Sequence record: MW349128.1
Strand: one strand, 5' to 3'
Length of the DNA: 64,000 bases
Source of the DNA: Staphylococcus phage Machias
Shown: positions 38,853 through 63,690 of the stretch, one piece after another
How positions within the stretch are numbered: the stretch's first letter is position 1
Layout: every line of letters starts with the position of its first letter
Notes under the pieces: generated by a model
Database searches by the model: none
What the model saw: only the letters and a program-made list of their open reading frames with translations
What the model was told of the DNA's origin: nothing
Translations under genes and position numbers: made by a program

Positions 38853-41800
38853 ATGGCAGACTTTATGTATCTCCATCCTTCTGTACAAACTCAAGTTAAC
38901 TCTTATCAAAATAACTTCCAAACAGCTGAAGGTCCAGTGACTTTATTTGCAGCTGACACATTTGAAAAAGGTAAAGATGGAGTTATTGACTTTGTTGGTA
39001 CTGAAGAAGAATTTATCTTTAAATATGGTGAACCAAATTACGCAAAATACGGACAAACTGCTTACAACATGGTAAACTGGTTACGTTCTGGTGGTCAAGC
39101 TTACGTATTACGTGTACTACCTCAAAACGCAACTTACTCTCATGCCATTTTAAATGTTCAAAGTAGAGTTCAACGTAAAGGCAAAAAAGTTTTAACAGAA
39201 GCAAATGAATTAGTAGAAATTGATGACGTTAAAATTCGTCCAACTATTGCATTTGTTAAGAAAAATAATAGAAATATTGAAGAATTAGTAAATGAAATTT
39301 CATTAGACCGTACTGCAGAACAAACTGTAGATGGATATAATAATAATTTCTTATTATTAGCTTATCCAAATGGTCGTGGTGAATCTTATAACGATCTAGG
39401 AATTCGTTTAACATTAAATACTTCTTATGACACTAGTGGTCGTACTGAACGTGTTTATAATTTAGAAGTATTAGATTTCGATGAATTTGGTAACGTTAAT
39501 GTAATAGATGGACCTTTCTTAGTAACATTTGATACAGATTCAATTTCTGATACTGGTGAATCAATGTTTATCGAAGAAGTAGTTAATCGTTATTCTAAAT
39601 ATATCAATATTAAATTTAATCTTGAAAATTTCCAAAGATTAGCTGAGCAAATTAATCCATATGTTCATCCAGCTAGTATTGATGTTATTTCTGGACGTTC
39701 TAAAGTAGGTTTAGACGGAAATCCTGAAACATTCTACTCTGAAATTACTAAAGATTCAGAAGATGTTCATGTTTCTTTACAACGCTACAACAATAAAGGT
39801 ATTCCAGTAACTATTAATGGACAACCAGTATTAAATAAACCTGATTTTAACGATCCAGTTGAAAATGCTTTAATTTCATTAGATAATGGTATTCGTGAAA
39901 AATCATTTGTAACAGATTCTGACCGTTTATCTTACATGAGAGATCAATATAAGACTCTACGTTCTGATAAATTCTCTGAATTCAAGTCAATCTTAAATAA
40001 AATTATCGTACCTAATGGTGGACTATTTGTTGATGATGCAGGAGATCTTCCTAAGACAATTAAAGAGAATTTAGTTTCTGATAAATTAACTCAAGAAGAT
40101 GTTACAGCTAATATTGAAGATGAAGAAGCAGTAGAAAAAGAATTAGCTGAAAAATTCAAACCTTCTGAAATTAACTTTGGTGGTAAACCTTCAGGTGTTG
40201 TATCTGAATTGGTTGAAAACTATAAAACTTATTTCGAAGATTCTAATGAAGAAAACTTATCAGCTGTATTAGCTTCTTCTGAAGAAATTGGTTCTTTACT
40301 ATTAAATGAATTCTTAGATAATGGTAATAAACTTAATGCAGCTTATGAATTAGTTTATAAATCTAATTCAGGTATTTCTTCAAATCCTAAATATCAAGCA
40401 GATGTTAAAGAATTACGTGATGTTCTTTCTCAAAAAGACCAAATCCGTATCTTTGGTATTCAACATAAATCTAATATCTTAGATATTACAAATGATATTG
40501 CTGAATTACGTATTGGAATGAAATCTGTAACTAATATTGAAGGTATGAGTAAAGTATTAAACGATACTGAAACTGAACTTAAATATGTTACTGATAATTT
40601 AATTCCTGCTGTTAAAGAAGGATTACCAGAAGATGCTATTAAATTCATTAACACTGTTCCTGATGAAGATGGAGACGGTGAACGTGAAATAGTTTCTCCT
40701 GAATCTATGTTAAACCGTATTGCAGATTGTCAATTATTGATTGATGATGTTCGTGTAGGTTTAATGGAAGATAACGCAACTAATCGTGAAGAAGTTTATA
40801 CTGCATGTAATGAAATTGCTAATCAATTAGTTGACTTAATTAATAGAGCTGTTTCAGTATCTTCAACTTATAAAGTTGCTCGTGCTGTACGTATTGCAGC
40901 TAACACTATCTATTATGATATTGCTATTTTCCGTAAGAACATTGATGAAATGATCCAAACTCGTTCTAACTATACTGAACGTGATATCACTTCAAATGCT
41001 CATCAAAATATTGAATTGGCTGTTGCTAACTTGAATAAAGCTAACTCTAAATACTTCAATACTAACCTTATTGATGTAGCTAGTCCGGTTAAATTCTTAT
41101 TCGGTTCAGATGGTGATTTCTCTTATGAAAATGATTTATCATATAGTGAACGTAAGAATGCAGTTAATCGTGAATTAATTAAAGCTTATAAAGGTTTAAT
41201 TGATGAAGATTTAACAAATACAAAAGCTGTTCCGTTTGATGTTGTTCTTGATGCTCGTTATTCTAACGAAGTTAAGTTCGCTATTTCTGAATTAGCTAAA
41301 AACAACCGTAAGGACTTTGTATTCTTAGCTGATACTGTTACTGATCGTTACCCAGTTAGTCCTGAAGATGCAATTAAATGGAGAAAAGAAGAATTTGCAG
41401 TATCTTCTGAGTACACAGCTATTTACTCTCAAGACTTAACTTACTATGATGAGTATACTGGTAGAGACATTCGTTTCACACCAACTTATCGTTTAGCTTC
41501 AATGATTCCTTATCAAGCAGTTAATTCTGGTTTACACTTCCCTATTGCAGGACCTAGACGTGGACTAGTAGAAGGACATAAAGCTTTATCATGGGCTCCT
41601 AATGAACCTTATAAAGAAAAACTTTATACTTCTAAGATTAACTACATTGAAAAAGATATTGATAGAACTAAATTTGGTTCTCAAATGACATCTATTAAAT
41701 CAGATGGTCCATTATCTAACCTTAATAATATCTTCACATTAAATCAAATTAAACGTGATGCTGAAACATTAGTTTCTGATTACCAATTTGAATTAAATGA

Positions 41801-43039: not shown

Positions 43040-45202
43040 TTAATAATTTATTCTAGAGTATATGTGACATAATGTTATAATATCTAAATTCTCAGTTTCA
43101 TTCAATAATCTGTCTTTCCAATTTTCTCCGAGATCGTATATTGTTTCACCAATTTCACTTTCAGTAAAATTCTGTAGCGGAACTAATTTAGCGTCATACT
43201 TATTAAATTTGTTAATATATCCATCATAAGTATAATCTTGACTCAGATATTTAATGGATTCAAATACAAAAGGTTTAAATATCATATATCTATCAAATTG
43301 CATATCATCATGTATCATTAAAATTTTAGGTAAATAATGAGATTTTATTGGGAAAGAAATATCTAAATTCTGTATTGGATTTTTATATCTAATATCGAAT
43401 TCTAATTTTCTAGTGTTATAATCAAATTCATTAATAGCATAATATATAGGAGGTTTTTCTATATAAAACTCAATATTATCTTCAGTATCTATATATTCAC
43501 TAATACTTCTAAATGATCTTGATTTTTCACCATCAATATTATTTAATTCATCATCATTATTTGTTTCTACATAATCCTTAAATATGAAATAATGATCTTT
43601 AAGATTAGGGTATAATAATGCTTTTGGATTGACATCTGAATGTTTTTCAATGGTATTTGAATTTATTATCAATGAGTCAAATAAAAAATTATTTTCATCA
43701 GACACTGTTATTTTAATTTCATTTTCTTTTTTCAGATATACTTCTTTAATACGATCATCTATACCTATATCAGTATTTCTCTTATATAAAGATAATGTAC
43801 ATAAATCATTATGATCTCCATATACTTTAGCTAAGTAATTTTTACCATTTATACTAATTATTGCTTCTTCTTTTTTATTATTAACTTCATTCCTATTTTT
43901 TCTTCTAAACAGTAAATTGAATGTGTACATTCCGGATTCAGTTAATTTGATTTCATTTTTAAGTGTACCTGTTAAAATTGTAAATTTATTGTTCATTCTA
44001 TTAACTTCATCAATAGAAGTTAATTTACCATCTATCTTTACAGTTTCTAAAATATTTCCAGTACCCATATTTAATGAATCATTATCTACATAAAAATCAC
44101 TCATTGGAATTATAGTACGAGTGCCAATCTTAAAGTCGTTATAAGTTTTAACATAAAAAGGATTTTTGGATTCAGGAACTTCAGTCTCTTGAAGTATAAT
44201 AATATCTATATCATTATTTTTAGTAGAGAATCTTTCATCGTATTCAAATTTAAACGTATGTTTTCCTTTTTCCAAATACAATGGTACTTCTTCATAAAAT
44301 TCATTTTCTGAATCTCTATAAAATTCTAATATAGATCTATTCCATATAAATTCCCTATCTGTCGGAGATCTAAAATAGTACCCTACATTATCTACAAATA
44401 CTTTGTTCACTGTACCATTACTAAAATGGTTTCCATTTTTACATCTAATTTCATAATAAGAAGAATTAGGAATATAAATGTTCATTTCCAATATTCCATC
44501 CTCAATAGTTACATAACCTTCTCCAAGAAATCTATCATATCCTGATTTTCTTTTATAAGCTCCATCAAAGTTACTTTCCCTTGTTTTATATATATCACCT
44601 AGATATGCATCATAAAATATCCTACCGTCATCTAATAATCCTTCATGTATTAGTCCATCTATAATTTCAGATTCTTTTAATACTTTACGATTATAAGCAT
44701 AATCTTTAGGATACTTTCTATTATCTTGATATATTGGTGGGTAAGGTTCGATTTTCACTTCCTTTCTTTCTATACTATTAAAAGACAAATCTTCATATTC
44801 TATATTCCCTATGAAGTTTGTGTCATAAATTCTCTCTGTTTTACCTAAATAATTATAGAATATAGTAAATAAGTCATATTTTAATTCACCAATAATTTCA
44901 TAAGGTCTTTCTTCATATACTAAAATATCTGAAGAAATATCCTCTAATCTAAAGGTTGGATTCTCTAAACCATATTCACTTTTGATATAATCTTCTGATT
45001 TTGGAATATCAAGTGTATTATCTTCATTAAATGTAAATTTATTATATTCCTCAGAATTAGATTCCACTCTTAATATTAATTTATCACTTTTCTTTGTTTT
45101 AGTTTCGATTAAAGTTTTATTTTCATTATCTTTAATTTTAGTTATTACAATGTCTCCAGAATTGTGTTTATCAATTAATTCTTCTATTCTATATAATTTC
45201 AT
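43040..45202 (-). CDS. Hypothetical large structural protein (720 aa), last gene of the minus-strand tail module; baseplate candidate
   Basis: Complete ORF in the tail gene block. Confidence 0.4.
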   Translation of the reverse strand: MKLYRIEELIDKHNSGDIVITKIKDNENKTLIETKTKKSDKLILRVESNSEEYNKFTFNEDNTLDIPKSEDYIKSEYGLENPTFRLEDISSDILVYEERPYEIIGELKYDLFTIFYNYLGKTERIYDTNFIGNIEYEDLSFNSIERKEVKIEPYPPIYQDNRKYPKDYAYNRKVLKESEIIDGLIHEGLLDDGRIFYDAYLGDIYKTRESNFDGAYKRKSGYDRFLGEGYVTIEDGILEMNIYIPNSSYYEIRCKNGNHFSNGTVNKVFVDNVGYYFRSPTDREFIWNRSILEFYRDSENEFYEEVPLYLEKGKHTFKFEYDERFSTKNNDIDIIILQETEVPESKNPFYVKTYNDFKIGTRTIIPMSDFYVDNDSLNMGTGNILETVKIDGKLTSIDEVNRMNNKFTILTGTLKNEIKLTESGMYTFNLLFRRKNRNEVNNKKEEAIISINGKNYLAKVYGDHNDLCTLSLYKRNTDIGIDDRIKEVYLKKENEIKITVSDENNFLFDSLIINSNTIEKHSDVNPKALLYPNLKDHYFIFKDYVETNNDDELNNIDGEKSRSFRSISEYIDTEDNIEFYIEKPPIYYAINEFDYNTRKLEFDIRYKNPIQNLDISFPIKSHYLPKILMIHDDMQFDRYMIFKPFVFESIKYLSQDYTYDGYINKFNKYDAKLVPLQNFTESEIGETIYDLGENWKDRLLNETENLDIITLCHIYSRINY

Positions 45203-45236
45203 AATTTTAGTTCCTTTCAGTTATGTTAATTTTAAA

Positions 45237-45829
45237 TTAAGTAAACATATTCAATCCCGGATTATTTGGATGGGGATTATATTGGGATTTATATCCATAA
45301 ATTGCATCATCAATTTGTTGTTGAAAAACTCTTCCTTTAATTACTTGCATACTTCTAGAATATTGAGTTTTCATATTAATTTGAGCTTTATCAATAATGG
45401 ATAGTTGATCTCTTCTAATTCCTGCTAAGCAATCAATATAAGATAATAATCCTGTATTAAATTTCATTCTTTGGAATGATTTAGAAGCCATTAAGTTTGG
45501 ATACATATCTCTAATATTAATAGATACAGTAATTTCTCTTGGGAAACCATCTGCAGTCCATGTACCTTCTTCACCACGAACTATATTCATTGAAGTTATT
45601 ATACCTGTATTACATTCAAATCTACCAGGACAATTAGCTCTAATAATAAACGGTTGCTTATAAGAGAATATTGAATCTTGTAAAGGTAAAGCTAATACTA
45701 ATAATGAAAGAAATGGTAAATATACATTGTCAAATATAGATTGTGGATCTCCATAAGCACTATAGAATTTAAATTCTAGATTATAAGTACGGTCAAAAGT
45801 TGAATTCATCCAAACCTGGTTTGTTAAAT
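45237..45829 (-). CDS. Downstream exon (exon 2) of a tail/baseplate gene interrupted by the IStron-like element. The open frame extends upstream of the annotated ATG to about 45829.
   Basis: The frame stays open for 10 codons upstream of the ATG (NQDLTNQVW), up to a G at 45830 that can serve as the intron terminal G. Confidence 0.35.
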
Positions 45830-45839
45830 CTTGATTTTA

Positions 45840-46070
45840 TATATTAAATATAAAGGCAAGACCTTGTATAAAATACACTTGGCTCAGTGACTAACGTATA
45901 AGGGAACCCTTATACTCCTTGTAAAGCTAATCGGACATTAGCTTATCACCCGTTTATCGTCTCCCGCTACCCGCAGGCGACTCTCATATCTTTTATTTTG
46001 TGAGATTAAACATATTTTAAATCTAGAATATTTTTAGCTGCATTTAAATCTCTATCAAGAACTACATCAC
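45840..46070 (-). ncRNA. Candidate TnpB omegaRNA (reRNA) scaffold / IS right end overlapping the tnpB 3' end
   Basis: Locally GC-rich (unlike the surroundings) with several hairpins on the minus strand: GCTAATGTCCGATTAGC, TATAAGGGTTCCCTTATA, CGCCTGCGGGTAGCGGGAG. Sits immediately 3' of tnpB, where omegaRNAs are encoded. Confidence 0.4.
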
Positions 46071-47199
46071 AATTAGGACAATCATGAGTATCATCACCTA
46101 AAACTAATTTCTCTTTATTAGTTCTAACATAACCACATGATGAACATGTCTGTGTAGTCTTTTTCTTAGTAATAATATTTAATTCATTATCATAAAAATT
46201 AGATTTAAATTTTAATTTTTCTAAAAAATCATACTTACCAAATCTTCTATTAGAACGTCTAAGATTTCTGAATCTATCAGATATTTTATGTGGATATGGT
46301 TCTATATTGATTACTTTATAATTTTTAACTAACCAATTAGTAATTTTGTCCCTATGATCTTCCAACATATCATATTCTCTATTATAAGACTTTCTTAATT
46401 GTTTTAAAAGTTTGTAATATGATTTTGAATAATATTTTTTTCTATCTAATTTAGATTTAATTTTTTCAGTTTTTCTTTCTTGTTTCCATAGAATATTCGG
46501 TATTTTAAATTCAAATACTTGACCGTTTGAGTCTACAGCAGCTAAAGGAGTTTTTATCCCCATATCAATACCAATTGAATAATTATTTTCTCTCTGTTTC
46601 TTATAATTGATTATCTCATAAGTTATAGAGATGTAGAATTTTTCATTCTTTCTGCTTATGGTGTAATATTTAAAATTAATATCGTTAGAGTTAATAAATT
46701 TTAAAGATTCCTTAGTTTTAATAACAAAAGGTTTAATTCCTTTCATTGCAGAAACTCTTATCCATTTTTTAGATAAAAATTTTACAGGTAAACTTAGTTT
46801 ATCTTTAACTATAAATCTAAATGAATCGTTAGAATATTTTTTCTTTTTAAATTTAGGTTTAAATTTATCACTATCTATATAATTTTTAGATTTTCTAGCT
46901 TTACTCTGCATTTCATAGTATTTAGAAAAAGTCTGATTTAGATCTTTTAAAGCTTCTTGTCTAACCATACTATTAACTTCATAAAGATAAGGATAATTTC
47001 CAGAATTTTGAATTTCGTTGTTTAATTTCTTTTGAAAATCAAATCCACTAAATTTCTTATCATCATCAATATTCTGATAATCTTCTAAAGCCATATTCCA
47101 TACTTTTCTTCTTACACCAAAGCATTTATTGAAATAATTCTTTTGGTCTTGATTTGGGTATATTCTAGTTTTGAAAGATTTAACTATTCCTTTTTTCAT
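46006..47199 (-). CDS. tnpB: TnpB (IS200/IS605-family RNA-guided nuclease, OrfB), apparently intact
   Basis: RuvC-I SIGIDMGIKTPLAAV, RuvC-II E in KVINIEPY, zinc finger CSSCGYV...CPNCDVV, RuvC-III DRDLNAAKNIL; strong SD AGGAGGTG. Confidence 0.85.
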   Translation of the reverse strand: MKKGIVKSFKTRIYPNQDQKNYFNKCFGVRRKVWNMALEDYQNIDDDKKFSGFDFQKKLNNEIQNSGNYPYLYEVNSMVRQEALKDLNQTFSKYYEMQSKARKSKNYIDSDKFKPKFKKKKYSNDSFRFIVKDKLSLPVKFLSKKWIRVSAMKGIKPFVIKTKESLKFINSNDINFKYYTISRKNEKFYISITYEIINYKKQRENNYSIGIDMGIKTPLAAVDSNGQVFEFKIPNILWKQERKTEKIKSKLDRKKYYSKSYYKLLKQLRKSYNREYDMLEDHRDKITNWLVKNYKVINIEPYPHKISDRFRNLRRSNRRFGKYDFLEKLKFKSNFYDNELNIITKKKTTQTCSSCGYVRTNKEKLVLGDDTHDCPNCDVVLDRDLNAAKNILDLKYV

Positions 47200-47453
47200 T
47201 GTTTAATTTCACCTCCTAATCATATTATATAAATATGTTAGGAAATTCCTGATATGAATTTTTTATCAGTATTTTATACAATCTCTAAATTAGTAATTTA
47301 GAGCACAGACTATATCATACTCATTGATATGAGTGAATATATTTAGTCGTTGGACAAGTCTTATTGACTTGATGCTGATTGAGATAATAATCTATTCCAG
47401 CAATTAATATTCTTTGCTAATTAAAATTACTTTTAATAGGGACTATTTGTGTG

Positions 47454-48354
47454 AATAATCCGGATAATACATTGATGCACCATCTAAATGTTCCATAAAG
47501 TTACCTACAATACCACCAATAACTGGCATATTTGCTACCATATCATTAATACTATCTTTAATAGTTCTAGTAATTTTACCTAAAATAGAAGCTCCACCAA
47601 TACGAGCCATTTCTTTTTGTTCTCGTATTTCTTGGTTTTTATTATTAACTTGAGAAGCAATATCAGATTGATTATATTCATGCATTGCAGATTCTGATAT
47701 ACTAGTTGATTTATCTGCATAGTAAGCTAGTCCATAGTTTTTATCATCTTGTAGAGATCCACCTAGATCAAATGATCCTTTTAAACCCATTGATGCATGA
47801 ACTTGAGAAGCCATAGTTTGTACGTATTTATAATATTCAGCCATTTTAGGTTCAAAGCTTATCATACGACCATCTTTAGTATTACCGATACCTACTAAAG
47901 ATAAACCAGAGTTTACTAATCTATCCATTCCTTCACCAAAACTCCATAATTTACCTTCTCCTGGTTTACCAAATAATTTACCATTTAATTTAGGCATACC
48001 CGGCATTATAAATACTAAAGGTAAATCTAATTCAAATGTTCTTTTATATATTCTTCTATTAGGATCATCTAAACTAGAATAGTACATAGGCATTCCAAAT
48101 ACATCTAGTTCACCTTTAACATTTCTTAATTGTTTTTTATCTTTAGCATTTTTATCTGTTAAATATTCAGTTGCTTGTCTTTGATTACCCAAAGCATCCA
48201 TAAAAGCACCAGTATCTTTTTGAGTAGGATCATATTCATGATAGTCATAATCACCTTTTTTCTCATCAGCTTGAGGTATTAAAGCCATATCATCATCTGC
48301 CACTTTTAAAGGTTCTTGTTCCTTAGACTCTTTTTTATCTTTTTCTTCAGCCAA
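47454..48354 (-). CDS. Upstream exon (exon 1, 303 aa as an ORF) of the tail/baseplate gene interrupted by the IStron-like element
   Basis: The ORF stops (TAG 47443-47445) a few codons inside the group I intron 5' region, the same pattern as all other intron-split genes in this window. Confidence 0.45.
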
Positions 48355-48455
48355 TTTATTTCACTTCCTTTTAATAATAAAGAGGATATGACACATAATA
48401 AATGTCATATCCCCAATTTAATTTATTTACTATAAATTTATGTTGCATCAAAATA

Positions 48456-51400
48456 TTATTTTCCTGAGAAAACAGGTATAGCTGGTCTAACGTCAATAAC
48501 AAATCTATCTCCATAAGAATCTCTAATTGCTTCTTGTAAATCTTGATTACCTGTAGATGGATCTTGACTTGAACCATCAGGAGTATAAGGATTATTAGGA
48601 TCATTAGGATTATTAGGGTTGTTTGGATTATTAGGATTTGATTGATTATCATTTCCATTATTATTGCTATTATTTCCATTAGAACCATTAGATCCATTAG
48701 AACCATTATTTCCATTAGATCCATTTTGACCGTCTTTACCGTTATTAATAATATTAGGATTTTCTTTAATAATTTTTTCAAGCTCTTTTTGAATATCTTT
48801 AATAATTACATTACCTTTAGAATCTACTAAATCACCTTTATTATTAATAATAGTATTAGAAATATTTGTTGTATTTCCATCTTTATTAATATTTTTACCT
48901 TTAAAGGACATATCTTTAAGTTGTTCTAACATTTTGGCAGTATTTTTATCAATATTGCTTGTATGTTTAATTATATTATCTAAATCCATACGTTTTTGTG
49001 GATCTACTTTCATAGGTCCTTTATTTTCATAATTTACTTTAGAATTATTATAATTATTAGTAATATTATAGATATTTCTTACTGTATTATTATTACCTTG
49101 TATAGTTTGATTTGTAATGGAATTATTATTAGTTGTAGGTTTACCATTATTATAATTATTATTGATAACCGTAGAACTATTATTTCCTCCATTATTAATT
49201 ATACTAGAATTATTCTGGTTATTATTAACATTTCCTTGACTTCCTGAAGATGATTGATTGTTACCATCAGCTCCAGAACTATATGAAGGTGATGAACCAT
49301 CTTTACCGTCTTTTCCATCAGAACCATCTTTACCAGATGATCCTTCTGAATCGTCAGATGATGAACTTGATCCACTTGAAGATCCAGATTCTGTAGCTTC
49401 CTTACCTGCTTTAGCTTTAAGTTCAGCCTGTTGTTCTTCATCTATCTTTTTAGCTTCTTCATAGTCAATTCCATAAATTCTAGCATAACGTTTCATTAAT
49501 CTATCATTTAAAGCTTCTTGTTCTTCTTCATCCATACGGTTATCATCTCTACCAGTAATAGAACCGTACCAAGTACCATTTTTGAAACTATATTCAGAAG
49601 CTCCAGCAGAAGATCCATTAGAGTCTCCTCCTTCACTATCGCTTCCACCTATTTTATCACTACCATCTAGAGGTTTACCTGTATCATCAGGACCACCGCC
49701 GCCATATCTCATTGTAATACCAATTTGTAATCCCATTTTTTGGTATTTATTTGCAGGAGTTACAGCAACACCATGACCATAATATGATTCAACTTGTTTT
49801 CCTCCACCTATATACATAGTAACATGGTTATCGTTATCACATAAAGTAATATCACCAATTTTTTTCTTAGTGCCTTTACTTATTTTTCTAAATTTAGTAC
49901 CACCATCTCTAAAAGTAAAAGTGGTAGCATTAATATCCATTTCTAAACCAGCTTTTTTGAATGAACGAGCAATTAAACTAGAACAGTCAAATGAATTTTT
50001 ACCTTGTCTATTTGACTGAGAGTATGTTGCACCATCTTGAGCTATTGCCCATTGTACTGCTTGTTTAATTTTATCTCTTTCAGATCCACCGGATCCTCCA
50101 CCTTTACCATAAACTCCACCAGTAATAGTAGGTTTTTCTAAAACTAAACCAGTTTTTCCAACTTTTTTATTTTTATTAGATGTAGATGATACCATATTTG
50201 CAAATTGATTAACGTTCGTATCACTATAAACAGTACTAGAACCTCCACCTTTAGCTTTAGTGGATTTCTTAGATGAACCCCCTAGTTTATCTAACCATTT
50301 TTTAGCGTTTGATTGTCTTTCAGGAATAACTTTAACTCCTGCACGTTCATACAAATTCTCCCATACAACTGTTGCTTCATCAACATTCTTAGCTTTCTTA
50401 ATAGCAGACCAAGCAGCAGATTCAGATCCTTGAAGTTCATACCACATGAAGTCTAACTGAGCATCAAGATCAGACCATTTCTTACCTTTCTTTTCAGCAA
50501 ATGCTTTAAGATTATCTTTACGATCATCCCATTGAGCTAGTCCTTTACCTCCGACCCAACCAGAGTTTTGTTCGGCACCGGGATCCATTTTGGATTCACG
50601 TTCAAAGTTACCTAATATACCTGCTATCTGATGATCTTCTAACCCTTTTTCAGCAAAGAAATTCCATACTTTAGATGCAACATCTTTACCATCAACACTT
50701 TCTGCTCCTCCATCAGATGATCCTTCTGAAGAAGAACTTCCTGATGAACCGGCCATGAATCCTGCCATAATATCATTCATCATTCCGCCAAGTTTATCAA
50801 ACCAATCACCAATTTTGTTTACTACTTCACCATCAGGATCAGTTATATCTTTTTTAGATTTTTTCTTTTTCTTCTTACTTAATAAAGAATAGAAAGGAGA
50901 TAATCTTAACATAGTTTCAGCCAATTTTTTAGGAGCTTTTTTAAGTTTACTCATTAAATTATTAGGCATCATTTTATGCATTTTTTCACTAATTTTACCC
51001 ATGATAGATAAAGGAGAATTTTTCATTACTCCATTAACATCTTTCTCGATATTATCTTTAGTTTTATTAGTTGACTCTTCTACTTGTTTTTTAGCATCTT
51101 TACTAGCTTTATCAGACATTCCTTGCATTTCAGCCATTTCTTTCTTAGCTCTTTCAGATGCATGATCTTCAATACCTTCTTGATAAGAACCTAATTCTTC
51201 TTTACTAGCTTCCACCATTTCACGACTTTGATTAGACATATCTTCTTCATGAGAAGAGAATTTGTCATCAAGGAATCCTGATAAGTTTTTAGCTAAGCCT
51301 ATTCCACCTTGAATAAGATTAGAAGTAGCTCCGACCATATTACTAATTCCTTTTCCAGCCATAGCTAAAGGTGCCATTAATAACATTGAAGCTCCACCTA

Positions 51401-54200
51401 CAGCTTTTTTAATTAAACCACCAAAACCTTCAGATTTTTCTTCCATCATACTATCAGTAGAATCACCAAATCCTTTAGCCATTCCAGTAGTTTTTTGTAC
51501 CATATTCATACCTAGACCAAAAGCAGGTTTTACAATTCCTTTATAAAGTCCAACTCCAGCTAATCCCATTAAAGGAACTTGAGCTAATAAAGGATTGTCT
51601 TTAATAAAACTTCCAATTAATGAAGAACTATCTTTATCACCAGTTAATTTAGAATCAACTAAAGGATCAACACTAAATTTAGCATTTTCACCGTTAGGTT
51701 GCTCTGAATCTAATTTCTCTTGTTCTTTTTTCTGTTTTGCAGGGTGATCATTAAAACCTATAAAGCTTCCTAAAGTTTTAATTGGATGTTTAAGAGATTC
51801 AATTGGATGTGCTATAGTACTCATTATTTCAGGAGCAGACAATAATATAGATAAAGGTAATCCTACACCAGTTGCGGCCAGTCCTACTCTTGAACCTACT
51901 TTCAAACCAGCTTTAACTATACCTTTACCGGCTTTAGATCTCATTAATTTACTTCCAACTTTACTTGCACCAAATTTACCTTTAGCTTTATTTCTTAGTT
52001 TAGAACGTAATCCTCTTCCAGCACCAGATAACAAAGCTCCACCAGCAGCAAATTTACCGGCAAGTGATTCACCAGCACCTATAACACTTTTACCAATTTT
52101 AGTATTAGCCATTTTACTATCTAATACTTTTCTTTTAAGTTTATCTTTATCAATATCTTTAATTTTATCTTTAGCTTTTTCTTCTATTTTATCTTTAATC
52201 TCATCTTTTAATGGATTATCTTCTTTTTCTTCTTGTTGTCTATTTACTTCAGAAGCATGAGCTTCATTACTATCTGAGATCAAAGTAGATTTTTGTTTAT
52301 CTTTATTATTTAAATTATTTCCATTATTAGAATTAGAAGAATTATTAGAATTAGAAGACTTAGTATCTTTAATATCATCCAATTTTTCTTTAATTTCATC
52401 AAATTTACTATCTTGTTTTTGACTATCTCCAGATACAATATTATTATTATCATTTTGTGAAGATTGTTGATTATTTTTTCTTACATCTAGTTTATCATTT
52501 ATTCTAGATACAATATTTTTAATTTCACTTATATCGCTATTGATAATATTAAAATTAATGTCAGAAAATTCATTGTTACCTTTAGAAGCATATGACTTAG
52601 GTTTTTGACCTTTATCATTAACTGCATTTATAGTACTTCCGCCAAGATTTTTTCTAATTGATTTAGATTTTTGATTCAATTGCATTCTAGCTTTAGTTAA
52701 ACTAGTTTTTACTTCTTTATCTTCAAATAGCTCTTCTAAAAGACTATTTACATTAGATGACTTAGTTTTAACTTTATCACTATCTTTAGAACTATTAACA
52801 TTTTCACTAATAATATTTTTTACTAATGATTTATAATCTTTAGAGTCTATATTTTTATCTTTAGCTTTACTTTCAACTCTTTTAAAGAATTCAGAACTTT
52901 CAATAGTTTTATCTATAGATTTTTTAATTTCATCATTAATAGTTTTAGATGTTTTAAAAGATCCTGAATCATAATCATAATGAATTTCTTCACCATCTTC
53001 AGAAGTTAAACCAACTATTTTAGATAAATAACCAGGAATAACTGTATTAATAGTACTATGTGTTTCAACATCAAAAGCTACTCTTTCATTTTTATTCTTT
53101 TTATTTGCTGTTGAAATTCCACCATCTATATTATTAAATAATTTATCTATAAGTTTGCTTTTCTGTTTATCTATGAAATCACGATTAGTTTTCTTCTTAT
53201 CTTCTTTATTTTCATCTTTAGTAAATACCGTTGACATATTTGTTAGCTTTTCACTAATTTTATCACTGTTTATTATATCAAAAGCTTTACCTTTAGCACT
53301 GTCTAAAAGTCCACCTTGTATGCCTTTAGTTCTACTCCCAATAATATCTTTAACTAATTCAATACCTTGTTTTTTAGCAAATTCTTTAGCTTTATCTTTA
53401 AAACCATCTGCTTGACTACCACTTAGTATATTAGAAAGAGTTATATTAGATAAGAACAAATCTTCTAAAGAATTACTATTTTTAATTTCACTTATATTTT
53501 TTACAGATGTATTATTTCTAATATCATTACTAGTTTTGATTAAACCTGTTAATCCTTCAAATAAATTCTCTCTAACATTATCATTAGTTTCTCTCATGTA
53601 ATGAAGAGTTTCCATTAAATTATTAAAACCTGTGGCATTAATTTGAGATAAATTAGATATAGAAGAAGTTAAAAGAGCAGAAGATTTAGCTGAAGATGAA
53701 TTATCATTAATTACTGTTGTTGATGAAATGACTTCAGATTTATTACTTTCTTCTTCATCAAAATCATCGAAAGAAAAATCTCCTATTTCATCATTATCTG
53801 AATTTTCATCACTCATATCAAAATCATCAAAGCTACTGAAATCAAAATCATCGCCCATATCCATTGTTCCGCCATCTAAATTGGATGATTTATTTAAAGC
53901 TCCTTTATCTATGATCGTTTCACCAGTTTTTAAAGTTCTTTTAGTACTTTTAAGAGCTTCTTTAGATAAATCTTTCCCAGTTTCAGTTAACTTCTTAAAT
54001 TGTTCTTTTCTATTATCTTTAACTTCTTTGATAGCTTTTAAAGGATTATTGTTATCAATAAGTTTTTTCATATTGTTTGATTTCATGTTATTCAAATTCT
54101 TTTTGAATTCATTATCAATGTATTTTCTAGAAGAATTAGAAGAGGAGTTCCTATTGAACTCTCTTTCTAATTTCTTATTATTAAATTTATCTTTAGCCAA
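48456..54200 (-). CDS. Giant tape-measure-like tail protein 1 (1914 aa) with a lysozyme-like domain and an NlpC/P60 (CHAP-like) peptidase domain
   Basis: Gly/Lys-rich GKxxGK repeats and hydrophobic helices typical of tape-measure proteins; AGILGNFERES...GKGLAQWDDR phage tail lysozyme-like block; C...H NlpC/P60 block (FDCSSLIARSF...HVTMYIGGG); C-terminal Ser/Asn-rich low complexity. Confidence 0.65.
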   Translation of the reverse strand: MAKDKFNNKKLEREFNRNSSSNSSRKYIDNEFKKNLNNMKSNNMKKLIDNNNPLKAIKEVKDNRKEQFKKLTETGKDLSKEALKSTKRTLKTGETIIDKGALNKSSNLDGGTMDMGDDFDFSSFDDFDMSDENSDNDEIGDFSFDDFDEEESNKSEVISSTTVINDNSSSAKSSALLTSSISNLSQINATGFNNLMETLHYMRETNDNVRENLFEGLTGLIKTSNDIRNNTSVKNISEIKNSNSLEDLFLSNITLSNILSGSQADGFKDKAKEFAKKQGIELVKDIIGSRTKGIQGGLLDSAKGKAFDIINSDKISEKLTNMSTVFTKDENKEDKKKTNRDFIDKQKSKLIDKLFNNIDGGISTANKKNKNERVAFDVETHSTINTVIPGYLSKIVGLTSEDGEEIHYDYDSGSFKTSKTINDEIKKSIDKTIESSEFFKRVESKAKDKNIDSKDYKSLVKNIISENVNSSKDSDKVKTKSSNVNSLLEELFEDKEVKTSLTKARMQLNQKSKSIRKNLGGSTINAVNDKGQKPKSYASKGNNEFSDINFNIINSDISEIKNIVSRINDKLDVRKNNQQSSQNDNNNIVSGDSQKQDSKFDEIKEKLDDIKDTKSSNSNNSSNSNNGNNLNNKDKQKSTLISDSNEAHASEVNRQQEEKEDNPLKDEIKDKIEEKAKDKIKDIDKDKLKRKVLDSKMANTKIGKSVIGAGESLAGKFAAGGALLSGAGRGLRSKLRNKAKGKFGASKVGSKLMRSKAGKGIVKAGLKVGSRVGLAATGVGLPLSILLSAPEIMSTIAHPIESLKHPIKTLGSFIGFNDHPAKQKKEQEKLDSEQPNGENAKFSVDPLVDSKLTGDKDSSSLIGSFIKDNPLLAQVPLMGLAGVGLYKGIVKPAFGLGMNMVQKTTGMAKGFGDSTDSMMEEKSEGFGGLIKKAVGGASMLLMAPLAMAGKGISNMVGATSNLIQGGIGLAKNLSGFLDDKFSSHEEDMSNQSREMVEASKEELGSYQEGIEDHASERAKKEMAEMQGMSDKASKDAKKQVEESTNKTKDNIEKDVNGVMKNSPLSIMGKISEKMHKMMPNNLMSKLKKAPKKLAETMLRLSPFYSLLSKKKKKKSKKDITDPDGEVVNKIGDWFDKLGGMMNDIMAGFMAGSSGSSSSEGSSDGGAESVDGKDVASKVWNFFAEKGLEDHQIAGILGNFERESKMDPGAEQNSGWVGGKGLAQWDDRKDNLKAFAEKKGKKWSDLDAQLDFMWYELQGSESAAWSAIKKAKNVDEATVVWENLYERAGVKVIPERQSNAKKWLDKLGGSSKKSTKAKGGGSSTVYSDTNVNQFANMVSSTSNKNKKVGKTGLVLEKPTITGGVYGKGGGSGGSERDKIKQAVQWAIAQDGATYSQSNRQGKNSFDCSSLIARSFKKAGLEMDINATTFTFRDGGTKFRKISKGTKKKIGDITLCDNDNHVTMYIGGGKQVESYYGHGVAVTPANKYQKMGLQIGITMRYGGGGPDDTGKPLDGSDKIGGSDSEGGDSNGSSAGASEYSFKNGTWYGSITGRDDNRMDEEEQEALNDRLMKRYARIYGIDYEEAKKIDEEQQAELKAKAGKEATESGSSSGSSSSSDDSEGSSGKDGSDGKDGKDGSSPSYSSGADGNNQSSSGSQGNVNNNQNNSSIINNGGNNSSTVINNNYNNGKPTTNNNSITNQTIQGNNNTVRNIYNITNNYNNSKVNYENKGPMKVDPQKRMDLDNIIKHTSNIDKNTAKMLEQLKDMSFKGKNINKDGNTTNISNTIINNKGDLVDSKGNVIIKDIQKELEKIIKENPNIINNGKDGQNGSNGNNGSNGSNGSNGNNSNNNGNDNQSNPNNPNNPNNPNDPNNPYTPDGSSQDPSTGNQDLQEAIRDSYGDRFVIDVRPAIPVFSGK

Positions 54201-54221
54201 TTTTTATTCTCACCACTCTTT

Positions 54222-60146: not shown

Positions 60147-60204
60147 CGCTCATATTTTCTTAATACAAATATGTTCCATCAAGTTATATGATTTGATAAT
60201 AATT

Positions 60205-62222: not shown

Positions 62223-63446
62223 ATGAATTTCATGGGATTAAATAAAAAACAAGAAGAAGGATTAATGAAGGCTAAGCACTGGTGGAATAATGATACATCA
62301 AGACCTTTTGTTTTAGCAGGAATTGCTGGAAGTGGTAAAAGTTATTTGATGACTAAAATAATAGATACTTTAGGATTACATGAATCTCAAGTATCATTTA
62401 TAGCATATACAGGTATGGCAGCAGGAGTATTAGTTAAGAGAGGTATAAATGCTACTACCATTCATAGAACTATTTATAATCCTTTCGTAGATGAAAAAAC
62501 AGGTGAAGTTAGATTTGTTTTAAAAACTAAAGAAGAATTTGATCCTGAAATTAAATTAATAATCATTGATGAAATATCTATGGTTCCTGATAAAATGATT
62601 GAAGAGATTAAACAATTTGAAATACCTATATTAGTTTGTGGAGACAAATCTCAATTGACACCAGTTTTTGGTACTAATTCATTAATAGAAAATCCAGACA
62701 TATTCTTAGATGAACCTGTTAGACAGGCATTAGATAACCCTATTCTTAAAATGGCTAATGAAGTTCGTAAAGGAGAAGATATTGAATATGGTTCTTATGG
62801 AGATAATTTACAAGTAATAAATTCAAATGAATTAACAATAGATATGTATAAAAATGCAGATCAAGTTCTTATGAGTTATAATAAAACAGTTAATCAATTT
62901 AATAGCTTCTATAGAAATCAAGTTGAAGGAATTGACATTGAATCAAATCCTTTTCCTAAAGCAGGAGAAAAAATTATTTGCTTGAAAAATAACTGGAATA
63001 AAGTTATTACTGAAGGAAATATAAATCAATATCTTACAAATGGTTTAATTGGAGAAATAACAAGATCTGGTAAGAAAAATAGTTTTACTGCTTCAACACA
63101 ATTAGATTTTAAGCCAGTAGGTTTTGATAATGAAAGATTTAGTAGAATATATTATGATGATTTAATTTTCAATGGAACTATTAGAGATCAACAAGAATTA
63201 TTTGAATTAAGAAAGACAGATAATGAAATTAATAAGATCTTTAAAAAACGTTATGTAACCACTATGAGTAATTTTAGTATGAAAGTTAATCCTTTTAATT
63301 ATGCTTATGGAATAACTGTTCATAAATCTCAAGGTTCTGAATTTGATAACGTTATTGTATTCGATGAAAATTATTCTAAAGATAGATACAAATCATTATA
63401 CACTGCAATTACTCGTGCTAAAAAGAATTTAATTATAGTTAAGTAA
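62223..63446 (+). CDS. Dda/RecD-like SF1 DNA helicase
   Basis: Walker A GIAGSGKSY, Walker B IIIDEISMV, VCGDKSQLTPV, C-terminal TVHKSQGSEFD motif. Confidence 0.8.
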   Translation: MNFMGLNKKQEEGLMKAKHWWNNDTSRPFVLAGIAGSGKSYLMTKIIDTLGLHESQVSFIAYTGMAAGVLVKRGINATTIHRTIYNPFVDEKTGEVRFVLKTKEEFDPEIKLIIIDEISMVPDKMIEEIKQFEIPILVCGDKSQLTPVFGTNSLIENPDIFLDEPVRQALDNPILKMANEVRKGEDIEYGSYGDNLQVINSNELTIDMYKNADQVLMSYNKTVNQFNSFYRNQVEGIDIESNPFPKAGEKIICLKNNWNKVITEGNINQYLTNGLIGEITRSGKKNSFTASTQLDFKPVGFDNERFSRIYYDDLIFNGTIRDQQELFELRKTDNEINKIFKKRYVTTMSNFSMKVNPFNYAYGITVHKSQGSEFDNVIVFDENYSKDRYKSLYTAITRAKKNLIIVK

Positions 63447-63459
63447 AGGAGATCTTTCA

Positions 63460-63690
63460 ATGACTAATAATAATAATCAAATTACTCAGGTTTCAAATCA
63501 ATTAAACACTGCATTGAATAATATTGCTAAAGCAATAAGAGGTCAGGATAAAATTGATGAAATTGAAGAGTTGAAACGAGAGAATAAAGAACTTCATGAA
63601 TTTCTCTTTAAAGTTTATCAGAATAATGAAGTTGATAGAAAAAAATTAAAGAAAATACTTTTTAAAGATATTAATAGTAAATTTATATAA
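63460..63690 (+). CDS. Hypothetical coiled-coil protein (76 aa)
   Basis: Complete ORF with SD AAGGAG. Confidence 0.35.
   Translation: MTNNNNQITQVSNQLNTALNNIAKAIRGQDKIDEIEELKRENKELHEFLFKVYQNNEVDRKKLKKILFKDINSKFI

What the first reader, a model, noticed from the sequence alone, without database searches (positions are those of the whole stretch)
45830..47453. IStron-like element: a group I intron fused to TnpB, sitting inside a phage tail gene
The canonical P/Q/R/S/P9 group I intron core found in the nine other introns in this window here lies directly 5' of an intact tnpB (RuvC D/E/D and zinc finger present, strong SD) on the same strand. Just upstream, the 303-aa ORF stops 0-3 codons inside the intron 5' end, exactly as every other intron-split exon here does. 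Just downstream, a second ORF on the same strand remains open above its ATG up to a G at 45830. Splicing from about 47454 to about 45829 would restore a single ~500-aa tail/baseplate protein (... MYYPDY / Y LTNQVWMNSTFDRTYN ...). This is the architecture of IStrons (IS605-type elements that have acquired a self-splicing intron so that insertion into an essential gene is phenotypically silent), known so far mostly from clostridial and Bacillus chromosomes. No tnpA is present, so the element is non-autonomous. A phage-borne, tnpB-only IStron in a tail gene would be unusual. It also raises the question of whether the TnpB/omegaRNA pair drives homing between co-infecting phages.
Basis: partly seen in the sequence, partly recalled or inferred. 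Interest (0 to 1): 0.9.

Follow-up and report, generated by a model that had tools for sequence, protein, structure and literature searches.

The report
TnpB-carrying self-splicing intron in phage

Summary
The finding is real, and its main interpretation holds. The window comes from Staphylococcus jumbo phage Machias. Seven related phages carry one uninterrupted 484-496-aa virion-protein gene. The true junction is MYYPD|VWMN.

The insert has three parts:
- A compact group I ribozyme (P1-P9.1). Its fold is supported by covariation across 42 related introns.
- An intact tnpB with D212/E300/D384, a CCCC zinc finger and dN/dS of 0.13-0.23.
- A conserved, covarying 190-nt 3' RNA that ends at the terminal G. 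This is the expected position of an omegaRNA.

The 5' exon ends in U, paired to G of the guide sequence, and a 5-bp P10 fits exon 2. Two diverged copies in phage LY01 sit in other genes. All three copies follow CGGAT. Relatives at 42-49% identity in metagenomic phage-like contigs have the same architecture, and their target motif and ribozyme guide sequence co-vary.

There is no tnpA. IStrons, including phage-borne and tnpB-only ones, are already described, so this is a new member of a known kind. Splicing, omegaRNA function and homing are inferred, not shown.

The parts
47458..48354 (-). Exon 1 of the virion structural protein gene (299 codons; TTG start)
   Evidence: 98% identical to the 5' part of the uninterrupted PB50 gene. 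The PHROG 20401 match spans both exons.
47458..47462 (-). CGGAT, the 5-nt motif abutting the left end. It is the presumed TAM, and its GGAU forms the exon half of P1.
   Evidence: The same 5 nt precede all three related copies: Machias and LY01 A and B.
45816..47457 (-). The whole IStron (1,642 nt), running from TATTCACAC... to ...AACAAACCAG
   Evidence: Exact insertion relative to PB50 and MarsHill, with no boundary ambiguity.
47440..47461 (-). P1 hairpin: exon GGAU plus intron UAUU, paired with AAUAGUCC (internal guide sequence). It has U-1 paired to G at the splice site. CAAAU at 47445-47449 is the P10 guide for exon 2 GUUUG.
   Evidence: The MFE fold recovers P1. The pairing is read directly from the sequence.
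47249..47439 (-). Ribozyme body:
- P2: 47417-47439
- P3: 47407-47412 with 47335-47340
- P4: 47397-47402 with 47373-47378
- P5: 47381-47394
- P6: 47355-47371
- P7: 47344-47348 with 47308-47312
- P8: 47319-47334
- P9: 47283-47303
- P9.1: 47249-47269
   Evidence: Fold z-score of -4.74. Covariance model hit of 147.7 bits. Covariation over 42 homologues, including the P3/P7 pseudoknot.
47210..47217 (-). Shine-Dalgarno AGGAGGTG for tnpB
   Evidence: Read from the sequence. Conserved in the LY01 copies and in metagenomic relatives.
46006..47199 (-). tnpB, 397 aa, 100% identical to 'transposase [Staphylococcus phage Machias]'
45816..46005 (-). Conserved structured 3' RNA, the presumed omegaRNA scaffold, which may begin inside the tnpB 3' end. 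It contains the core GTCGCCTGCGGGTAGCGGGAGACGATAAACGG (45950-45981), hairpins at 45924-45944 and 45896-45915, GTTAGTCAC (45887-45895) and the terminal TTAACAAACCAG (45816-45827). G45816 is the intron's terminal G.
   Evidence: 89-92% identical between copies, against 83-88% for the ORF. 12 of 22 predicted pairs show compensatory changes across 8 elements. Fold z-score of -3.05.
45796..45815 (-). The first 20 nt of exon 2 (GTTTGGATGAATTCAACTTT), the predicted guide segment of the omegaRNA and the target sequence in intron-less alleles
   Evidence: Inferred from position, by analogy with the TnpB/IStron literature.
45237..45815 (-). Exon 2 of the virion structural protein gene (192 codons plus stop)
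   Evidence: 96.6% identical to the 3' part of the PB50 gene.

Best explanation
The element at 47457..45816 (minus strand) is a TnpA-less IStron of the IS200/IS605-like ('group A') type. It is inserted in the virion structural protein gene of Staphylococcus jumbo phage Machias.

**Shown here**
- It is an exact 1,642-bp insertion relative to seven related phages.
- Its 5' 258 nt form a compact group I ribozyme, P1-P9.1 with the P3/P7 pseudoknot.
- The 5' exon ends in U, paired with G of the guide sequence GUCC. The intron ends in G.
- A 5-bp P10 (CAAAU with GUUUG) aligns exon 2.
- It encodes an intact TnpB under purifying selection.
- Its last 190 nt are a conserved, covarying RNA that abuts the 3' splice site.

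**Inferred**
- The gene is transcribed through the element. No terminator-like site lies inside it.
- The ribozyme excises the whole 1.6 kb by the usual two guanosine-initiated transesterifications. This restores the 491-aa protein (...MYYPD|VWMN...), so the insertion costs the phage little.
- Unspliced transcripts yield TnpB and an omegaRNA. Its scaffold is the 3' 190 nt and its guide is the first 16-20 nt of exon 2.
- The complex would cut intron-less alleles (TAM plus GTTTGGATGAA...) in co-infecting relatives. Recombinational repair would then copy the element in, which is RNA-guided intron homing.
- Splicing and guide-RNA formation should be mutually exclusive, because splicing cuts the scaffold from the guide. 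This was shown experimentally for clostridial IStrons.
- Because the TAM (CGGAT) includes the exon half of P1 (GGAU), the intron is pre-adapted to splice from any site the element can enter.
- Movement to new sites has occurred: there are three different sites in Machias and LY01. That needs something besides homing, either a Y1 TnpA supplied in trans or reverse splicing. Which one is unknown.
For: **Empty sites and exact boundaries:**. One PHROG profile (20401, E=4e-89) spans the junction of the spliced protein.

**Ribozyme:**
- The R and S elements match the canonical group I consensus (the Tetrahymena comparison is from my own knowledge).
- The MFE fold recovers P1, P2 and P4-P9, with z=-4.74.
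- Model R1 finds 42 homologous cores.
- 94.4% of cells are paired against 72% in shuffles. 30 of 43 pairs carry compensatory changes. The covariation score is 0.517 against 0.133, reached by 0 of 500 shuffles. Slid controls score 0.086 or less.
- P3 was not in the model, yet is 95.6% paired with 5 of 6 pairs covarying.

**TnpB:**
- Pfam domains and ISDra2 TnpB at E=1e-18 with the D/E/D residues and zinc finger aligned.
- dN/dS of 0.13-0.23 among three copies.
- Five full-length paralogues, 74-89% identical, in Machias and LY01.

**3' RNA:** it is more conserved than the ORF and has compensatory hairpin changes.

**Same architecture elsewhere:** seven relatives at 42-49% identity in metagenomic contigs (most carrying phage-type genes) interrupt a prohead protease gene, a DnaB gene and other genes.

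**TAM and guide sequence:** the TAM is shared by 3 of 3 close copies, and TAM and guide sequence co-vary across 10 elements.

**Transcription:** no minus-strand terminator-like site lies inside the element.

**Literature framework:** PMC4227781, bioRxiv 10.1101/2023.11.20.567912 and PMC13565253.
Against: - No RNA evidence exists. Splicing, omegaRNA production and TnpB cleavage are all inferred.
- Rfam's Intron_gpI model does not score the region even at E<=10.
- No curated omegaRNA model matched, and I could not identify the omegaRNA pseudoknot.
- The target motif CGGAT and the end CCAG differ from the published group A signatures (TTGAT, ATTAT or TTTAT, and TCAG).
- All seven empty alleles read CC(C/T)GAT, not CCGGAT. 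With a strict CGGAT TAM, TnpB might not cut the alleles sampled so far.
- There is no tnpA in the element, and none was sought in the rest of the phage or in the host, so the route to new sites is unexplained.
[quoted passage not shown] It is unknown whether TnpB works on that substrate.
Confidence: 0.82

Rival explanations
1. Immobile relic. The intron still splices, so the phage is viable, but TnpB and the 3' RNA no longer do anything. The element is simply inherited vertically.
For: - There is no tnpA.
- The element is absent from this site in all seven sampled relatives.
- The paralogues are old, at 74-89% aa identity, rather than a recent burst.
- The sampled empty alleles lack the CGGAT motif.
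Against: - dN/dS of 0.13-0.23, including between two paralogues inside LY01.
- All catalytic and zinc-binding residues are intact.
- The 3' non-coding RNA is more conserved than the ORF and shows compensatory changes.
- All five paralogues are full length.
Confidence: 0.12
2. A phage weapon rather than, or as well as, a selfish homing element. The TnpB-omegaRNA complex cuts the essential virion gene of co-infecting intron-less competitors and excludes them. This would resemble the intron-encoded endonuclease of PhiPA3.
For: - The guide region lies in a conserved essential structural gene.
- Relatives match the first 11 nt of the predicted target (MarsHill and SA1).
- There is a precedent for an intron endonuclease used in phage competition (PMC11620839, listed).
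- The OMEGA review notes that homing and killing of competitors can coexist.
Against: There is no functional data. The TAM in the sampled competitors differs at position -4. This reading cannot be distinguished from plain homing by sequence alone.
Confidence: 0.15
3. Spread to new sites by reverse splicing, not by a transposase. The excised intron RNA reverse-splices into transcripts after GGAU sites that pair with its guide sequence GUCC. It is then reverse-transcribed and recombined into the genome. TnpB serves only for homing.
For: - All three sites end in GGAU, which is complementary to the guide sequence.
- These phages encode a reverse transcriptase of unknown role (Korn et al.; LY01 annotation).
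- They carry about 35 ORF-less introns of the same family at many different sites.
Against: - The C at -5 is shared by 3 of 3 sites but cannot pair with the guide sequence. That fits protein TAM recognition better.
- Across the clade the motifs (TTGAT, ATGAT) match known IS200/IS605 targets.
- Reverse splicing of a 1.6-kb intron followed by cDNA integration has no demonstrated precedent in phages (my own knowledge).
Confidence: 0.1
4. An ordinary IS insertion that disrupts the gene, or two independent genes with an IS between them, with no splicing.
For: Two separate ORFs can be called, of 303 aa and of 190 aa with its own ATG. Rfam finds no intron.
Against: - The gene is a single ORF in seven relatives.
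- One PHROG profile spans the junction.
- The insertion boundaries coincide with a canonical U-1/G wobble pair, a terminal G and P10.
- The ribozyme fold is supported by covariation.
- The phage was isolated as viable.
Confidence: 0.02

Closest known systems
Group A (IS200/IS605-type) IStrons: CdISt1 and the CdiIStrons of Clostridioides difficile (Braun 2000; Tourasse 2014, PMC4227781; Zedaveinyte 2023, bioRxiv 10.1101/2023.11.20.567912)
   Same: - The order is 5' group I ribozyme, then tnpB, then a 3' RNA ending at the right end.
- The splice sites coincide with the element ends.
- The 5' exon ends in T.
- A fixed 5-nt motif ending in GAT precedes the left end. Close relatives of this element use TTGAT or ATGAT.
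- The 3' end is NCAG.
- The C. difficile copies also lack full-length tnpA.
   Different: - The motif is CGGAT rather than TTGAT, ATTAT or TTTAT.
- The end is CCAG or ACAG rather than TCAG.
- No tnpA remnant is present.
- The ribozyme is a compact, roughly 210-nt core without the extra hairpin between P3' and P8 that the metagenomic relatives have. It belongs to the phage's own family of about 35 ORF-less introns. Published IStron introns are all classed IA2.
- The host is a virulent jumbo phage, not a bacterial chromosome.
CbISt3 and CbISt4 in Clostridium botulinum phages c-st and D-1873 (Tourasse 2014, PMC4227781)
   Same: They are phage-borne IStrons. CbISt4 has a defective ORF A with an intact ORF B.
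   Different: - They are IS607-type (group B) elements that insert after GG, splice after a G and end in CGG.
- Their TnpB is only about 27% identical to this one.
- Their host phages are plasmid-like prophages rather than lytic jumbo phages (my own knowledge).
CboIStron and CseIStron (IS607 family), the experimentally dissected IStrons (Zedaveinyte et al.; PMC13521648)
   Same: The same three-function logic applies. Splicing severs the omegaRNA scaffold from its guide at the 3' splice site, which coincides with the right end.
   Different: - They use a serine-recombinase TnpA and the TAM TGGG.
- Their antagonism and pseudoknot are shown experimentally. Here these are only inferred from position.
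ISDra2 TnpB-omegaRNA (PDB 8EXA, 8BF8, 8H1J)
   Same: It is the closest natural solved homologue (E=1e-18), with the same domain order, the same D/E/D residues and the same zinc finger. Its TAM is TTGAT, which also precedes relative L165 of this clade.
   Different: ISDra2 has tnpA and no intron. The alignment shows only distant overall similarity.
Homing-endonuclease group I introns of phages (T4 td/I-TevI; Twort orf142; SPO1/SP82; Staphylococcus phage K)
   Same: They are self-splicing introns in essential phage genes that carry a nuclease ORF outside the catalytic core. They spread by cutting intron-less alleles during co-infection (my own knowledge).
   Different: The nuclease here is an RNA-guided TnpB whose guide is transcribed from the intron-exon 2 junction. 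It is not a protein-only GIY-YIG, HNH or LAGLIDADG enzyme.

Membership tests
IStron (group I intron + IS200/IS605/IS607 element) | A group I ribozyme occupies the 5' part of the element | tested here: met
   P1-P9.1 lie at 47249-47461. Fold z=-4.74, model hit of 147.7 bits, and covariation including the P3/P7 pseudoknot.
IStron (group I intron + IS200/IS605/IS607 element) | An ORF B (tnpB) lies downstream of the ribozyme on the same strand, inside the intron | tested here: met
   tnpB at 46006-47199 (-). Pfam PF12323, PF01385 and PF07282.
IStron (group I intron + IS200/IS605/IS607 element) | The element ends coincide with the splice sites, and precise removal restores the host ORF | tested here: met
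   Exact insertion relative to PB50 and MarsHill. The spliced product is 491 aa and collinear with its relatives. One PHROG match spans the junction.
IStron (group I intron + IS200/IS605/IS607 element) | Splicing demonstrated in vivo or in vitro | not testable with these tools
   Needs RT-PCR, RNA-seq or an in vitro splicing assay.
IStron group A (IS200/IS605 type) | Inserted after TTGAT, ATTAT or TTTAT, with a 3' terminus of TCAG (PMC4227781) | tested here: inconclusive
   Here the motif is CGGAT and the end is CCAG (ACAG in LY01). It shares the ...GAT and ...CAG ends with T at -1. Relatives L165, L016 and L164 use TTGAT or ATGAT. The motif is not one of the three published pentanucleotides.
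IStron group A (IS200/IS605 type) | A Y1 (HUH) tnpA or its remnants in the element | tested here: not met
   No ORF of 40 aa or more other than tnpB lies in 45816-47457 on either strand. The literature accepts tnpA-less IStrons as members.
IStron group A (IS200/IS605 type) | Subterminal palindromes at the left and right ends, as recognised by TnpA | tested here: inconclusive
   Hairpins exist near both ends: P2 at 47417-47439, and TTTATAT/ATATAAA about 23 nt from the right end with a compensatory change in LY01 copy A. They are equally explained as RNA helices. LY01 copy B has a G-T pair at that position, which favours RNA.
IStron group A (IS200/IS605 type) | Intron of subgroup IA2 | tested here: inconclusive
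   The core has no extra hairpin between P3' and P8, unlike the larger ribozymes of metagenomic relatives. I made no formal subgroup assignment.
IStron group B (IS607 type) | Inserted after GG, 5' exon ending in G, element ending in CGG | tested here: not met
   The exon ends in T, the target is CGGAT and the end is CCAG.
Group I intron | The 5' exon ends in U, forming a U-G wobble pair with the internal guide sequence in P1 | tested here: met
   GGAU|UAUU pairs with AAUAGUCC. The same holds in 9 of 10 elements of the clade, with U-A in one.
Group I intron | A terminal G, and a P10 pairing of the guide sequence with the 3' exon | tested here: met
   G45816 is the last intron base. CAAAU (47445-47449) pairs with GUUUG, the first 5 nt of exon 2.
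Group I intron | A conserved P3-P9 core with a P3/P7 pseudoknot and the R and S elements | tested here: met
Group I intron | A match to the curated Rfam model RF00028 | tested here: not met
   No hit at the gathering score, nor at E<=10 on the region or E<=5 on the window. None of the 8 covariation-supported introns in the window is detected, so this reflects the model's reach.
TnpB (OMEGA RNA-guided nuclease) | A RuvC D/E/D triad and a CCCC zinc finger in a TnpB domain arrangement | tested here: met
   D212, E300 and D384 align with ISDra2 D191, E278 and D361. The cysteines are C352, C355, C374 and C377.
TnpB (OMEGA RNA-guided nuclease) | An omegaRNA scaffold encoded at or after the 3' end of tnpB and reaching the right end, with its guide taken from the flanking DNA | tested here: inconclusive
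   A conserved RNA of the right size and position is present, with 12 of 22 pairs covarying. There is no curated model match, no pseudoknot was identified and no RNA ends are known.
TnpB (OMEGA RNA-guided nuclease) | RNA-guided, TAM-dependent DNA cleavage | not testable with these tools
   Needs a plasmid-interference or in vitro cleavage assay.

The most novel reading that the evidence does not exclude
The Machias element may represent a whole clade of TnpA-less IStrons that live in phage genomes and propagate purely as RNA-guided homing introns, or as weapons against co-infecting phages.

In this reading TnpB replaces the protein homing endonuclease of classical phage introns. The guide is supplied automatically by the 3' exon. 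The TAM and the ribozyme's internal guide sequence co-evolve (CGGAT with GUCC, TGAT with GUCA, TGGT with GCCAC, TGGGT with GCCCA), so one short motif serves both DNA targeting and RNA splicing. In Staphylococcus jumbo phages the system would also have to act on uracil-substituted DNA.
Probability: 0.35. Interest if true: 0.75.

Novelty: new member of a known kind. Interest (0 to 1): 0.55.

Why it matters
IStrons have recently become the model for how one transcript balances self-splicing against guide-RNA function, but all experimental work is on clostridial chromosomal elements. This Machias element has several useful properties:

- It is naturally tnpA-free.
- It sits in an essential structural gene of a culturable virulent phage.
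- Intron-less sister phages are available as natural recipients: PB50 and AH12 at about 97% identity, plus MarsHill, SA1 and LY01.

The finding also corrects the annotation of Machias. One 491-aa virion protein should replace two ORFs plus a 'transposase'.

It shows that Rfam-based screens miss about 35 introns per genome in these phages. It also provides a covariation-supported model of a minimal group I ribozyme of about 135-210 nt.

Tried and rejected
- **Rfam.** I ran the gathering threshold on the window, E<=10 on 45000-48500 and E<=5 on the whole window. There was no Intron_gpI or omegaRNA family hit, only chance-level snoRNA and miRNA matches. I rejected this as evidence against an intron, because the same search misses all 8 covariation-supported introns.
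- **RNAalifold on the plain MAFFT alignment of 40 cores.** It recovered only P4 and P7, because the variable hairpins were misaligned. I replaced it with anchor-based helix checks and a model-based alignment.
- **Exact 15-mer scans.** None of the loci checked carried the extended motif, so these are chance matches and the pattern was too short.
- **The search for related loci with TnpB in IMG/VR.** It found nothing.
- **The look-up of encoding contigs for the two other Machias paralogues (P0003, P0005).** They are not on record, so their insertion sites could not be read.
- **An early mis-assignment.** I first read the metagenomic relatives as group B-like, inserting after GG. Re-reading P1 pairing and the shared left-end sequence showed that all have T at -1 and TAMs of the form NNG(A/G)T.
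- **The omegaRNA pseudoknot (PK-1/PK-2).** I looked for it by eye and found no convincing conserved pairing.
- **The RE column.** The right-end coordinates printed by the script are wrong for several elements.
Full report
**Origin of the window.** The tnpB product is 100% identical to 'transposase [Staphylococcus phage Machias]' on a 274,478-bp contig. The region is 97% identical to phages PB50 and AH12, and about 84% identical to MarsHill, Madawaska, S6, DC4, SA1 and LY01. These are AR9-like jumbo phages of Staphylococcus and are presumed to contain uracil-substituted DNA (Korn et al., bioRxiv 10.1101/2020.12.14.422802). That paper lists introns in genes for RNA polymerase subunits, the prohead protease, DNA polymerase, TerL and gyrB. 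It does not mention a transposase, TnpB or an IStron. Four full-text searches found no paper describing IStrons in Staphylococcus jumbo phages.

**Check of the observation.** The 397-aa ORF at 46006-47199 (-) is a TnpB.
- Pfam finds HTH_OrfB_IS605, OrfB_IS605 and Cas12f1-like TNB domains.
- The closest natural solved structure is ISDra2 TnpB, at E=1e-18.
- The RuvC residues D212, E300 and D384 and the zinc-finger cysteines C352, C355, C374 and C377 are all present.
- The ORF follows an AGGAGGTG Shine-Dalgarno sequence.
- No other ORF of 40 aa or more lies inside the element, so there is no tnpA.

Upstream of tnpB on the same strand lie sequences matching the canonical R and S elements of group I introns, GTCCAACGACTAAAT and ATGATATAGTC. 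The comparison with Tetrahymena R and S is from my own knowledge.

**Exact boundaries.** PB50, AH12, MarsHill, DC4, S6, SA1 and LY01 each carry one uninterrupted gene of 484-496 codons at this position. It lies between the tail lysin gene and a 720-aa ORF. BLAST of the window against PB50 and MarsHill shows two collinear blocks that abut in the relatives and are separated by 1,642 nt here.

The insertion is window 47457..45816 on the minus strand, with no positional ambiguity. Exon 1 ends ...TATTATCCGGAT at 47458. The insert runs TATTCACAC...AACAAACCAG. Exon 2 begins GTTTGGATG at 45815.

Joining the exons gives a 491-aa protein that is collinear with its relatives and has the junction MYYPD|VWMN. 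A single PHROG profile, 20401 'virion structural protein' at E=4e-89, aligns across residues 62-454 and therefore across the junction at residue 299/300. The proposed refutation, two independently conserved genes, is not observed.

**The ribozyme.** The first 258 nt fold into a compact group I intron.
- P1 is exon GGAU plus intron UAUU, paired with AAUAGUCC. The last exon base U47458 sits opposite G of the guide sequence.
- The body comprises P2, P3 (GAAUAU with AUAUUC), P4, P5, P6, P7 (GACUA with UAGUC), P8, P9 and P9.1.
- The MFE fold recovers all the nested helices, with z=-4.74.
- CAAAU in the P1 loop is complementary to GUUUG, the first five bases of exon 2, which gives P10.
- The intron ends in G, and UG in J7/9 can pair with the CA that precedes it, which gives P9.0 (read from the sequence).

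The core is one of a family. BLAST and a covariance model built from eight copies find 8 cores in the window and 34 in LY01, at E=1e-6 to 6e-24.

On the model alignment, with P3 added as a pseudoknot, the support is strong:
- 94.4% of cells are standard pairs, against 72.0% after shuffling.
- 30 of 43 pairs carry compensatory changes.
- The covariation score is 0.517 against 0.133, reached by 0 of 500 shuffles. Versions slid by 1-3 columns score 0.086 or less.
- P3 was not part of the model and so cannot be biased by fitting. It is 95.6% paired, with 5 of 6 pairs changing on both sides.

An alignment-free check gave the same picture. Rfam's RF00028 detects none of these introns. The DC4 paper reported the same failure (PMC10638138).

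**The 3' RNA.** The 190 nt between the tnpB stop codon and the terminal G are 89-92% identical among the three close copies. The ORF is 83-88% identical, with dS of 0.5-0.7. A 9-bp hairpin changes by compensation: GUAUAAGGG/CCCUUAUAC in Machias against GUGAGAGAG/CUCUCUUAC in LY01 copy A. Across eight elements, including relatives 46-48% identical in TnpB, the block GUCGCC..GGGAGACGAUAAACG, the motif GUUAGUCAC and the terminal UUAACAAGACAG are conserved. 12 of 22 predicted pairs show compensatory changes.

This is the size and position expected of an omegaRNA scaffold, whose guide would be the first 16-20 nt of exon 2. I could not identify its pseudoknot, and no curated RNA model matches, so the assignment is an inference.

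**Mobility and relatives.** LY01 has two copies about 84% identical in DNA. They lie in two other genes and on the same strand as their host genes. Machias has two further paralogues that I could not read. The five TnpBs are 74-89% identical and all are full length. dN/dS among the three I could align is 0.13-0.23, so the protein is under purifying selection.

All three readable copies follow CGGAT and end in (C/A)CAG. GGAU pairs with the guide sequence GUCC. The C at -5 cannot pair, which suggests protein (TAM) recognition.

The next relatives, at 42-49% aa identity, come from metagenomic contigs, most of which carry phage-type genes. In every case a group I core lies upstream of tnpB, the same 3' RNA lies downstream, and the host gene is split. 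The split genes include a prohead protease and a DnaB helicase.

Across ten elements the 5-nt motif and the guide sequence co-vary:

| Motif before the left end | Ribozyme guide sequence |
|---|---|
| CGGAT | GUCC |
| TTGAT or ATGAT | GUCA |
| GTGGT or ATGGT | GCCAC |
| TGGGT | GCCCA or ACCCA |

T is always at -1. Boundaries in the metagenomic elements are inferred from P1 pairing and shared ends, not from empty sites.

TTGAT is the target of ISDra2 and CdISt1 (PMC4227781). This places the clade with the IS200/IS605-like 'group A' IStrons, although the Machias motif is not one of the three published pentanucleotides.

**How it most likely works.** The steps below are inferred, except where marked.
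- Transcription of the virion gene reads through the element. No terminator-like site lies on the minus strand inside it.
- The ribozyme removes the whole 1.6 kb and restores the mRNA.
- TnpB is translated from the precursor or from the excised intron.
- Unspliced RNA can be bound by TnpB as an omegaRNA whose guide is exon 2.
- The complex cuts intron-less alleles, and recombination copies the element in.
- In clostridial IStrons, splicing severs the scaffold from the guide, and TnpB or the omegaRNA structure represses splicing (bioRxiv 10.1101/2023.11.20.567912). The same geometry exists here.
- A 2026 review already states that TnpA-less IStrons could propagate by intron homing, including between co-infecting phages (PMC13565253).

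One caveat applies to homing. All seven empty alleles read CC(C/T)GAT rather than CCGGAT. MarsHill and SA1 do match the first 11 nt of the predicted target. The sampled relatives may therefore be poor substrates if the TAM is strict.

The Machias P1 loop differs from the LY01 copies precisely where it creates the 5-bp P10 with this exon. That suggests adaptation to this site.

How the element reached three different sites without tnpA is open. A TnpA supplied in trans and reverse splicing are both possible.

**Comparison and novelty.** Architecture, logic and most junction features are those of known IStrons. Phage-borne IStrons and IStrons with only ORF B were reported in 2014. The new points are these:
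- The host is a virulent jumbo phage of Staphylococcus, and the element was unremarked in the genome paper.
- The CGGAT motif has not been reported for IStrons.
- The ribozyme is compact and belongs to the phage's own large family of ORF-less introns.
- A clade of tnpA-less IStrons found mainly in phage-like contigs shows co-variation of TAM and guide sequence.

I therefore rate it a new member of a known kind, with moderate interest, mainly as an experimentally tractable natural system.

Noticed in passing
window 19281-19411, 19452-19584, 19891-20012 (-); 25744-25872, 25925-26056 (+); LY01 record 40384-41102, 137586-138823, 176193-176775, 233119-233615: Compact group I introns of the same family occur in tight tandem clusters. 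There are 2-4 cores within 300-1,240 nt, which implies very short exons between neighbouring introns. Which genes they split, and how such micro-exons are spliced, was not examined.
   Followed up: partly
whole window; also LY01 (L004-L009): Rfam Intron_gpI detects none of the 8 (window) plus 34 (LY01) covariation-supported introns. Intron counts for these phages that rest on Rfam are therefore zero by artefact, as in the DC4 paper.
   Followed up: yes
window 25925-26056 (+): This is the weakest model hit, at 52 bits. It has P3-P7 5' intact but lacks the S element and the P7 3' strand, reading ACTGTTAAC in place of GATATAGTC. It may be degenerate, or interrupted by an insertion in or after P8.
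   Followed up: no
LY01 record 62380-63483, 183049-184158, 230326-231429 and partial 53860-54549 (loci L005, L007, L008): There are three or four further TnpB genes only about 26% identical to the Machias one. Three of them are annotated 'mobile element protein' or 'transposase'. No intron core of this family directly abuts them. Whether they are plain IS elements or IStrons with another ribozyme is unknown.
   Followed up: no
LY01 record 60015-60178 (L005:10018-10148, -): This ORF-less intron has P9 and a downstream tail (GTGCTCTAAAAT...AGAGATTGTAAATA) that closely resemble the IStron's ribozyme. It is 75% identical over element positions 14-181. It could be either the ancestor type or a tnpB-deleted derivative of the IStron.
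   Followed up: partly
window 47458-47462 against the empty alleles in L001, L003, L019-L022 and LY01 213652-215142: Only the intron-bearing Machias allele has the Pro codon CCG, which makes CGGAT and a 4-bp P1. All seven intron-less alleles have CCC or CCT. This could be exon co-adaptation, co-conversion, or selection of TAM-escape alleles.
   Followed up: partly
L010 3281-5900; L014 743-4194 (metagenome contig ERZ27235459 k119_3831, 134 kb): A single uncultured phage-like contig carries at least two IStrons of this clade. One lies in a prohead protease (Peptidase_S77) gene and one lies after a DnaB-like helicase ORF. Their ribozymes are about 400 nt, larger than the Machias one.
   Followed up: partly
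LY01 record 73311-74813 (L005 23311-24813): A gene annotated 'retron-type RNA-directed DNA polymerase' is present in these intron-rich phages. Korn et al. call its function unclear. A role in intron spread by reverse splicing is conceivable but untested.
   Followed up: no
window 48382-48414 (-): The only terminator-like hairpin in 45200-48500 lies between the tail lysin gene and the start of the split virion gene.
   Followed up: no
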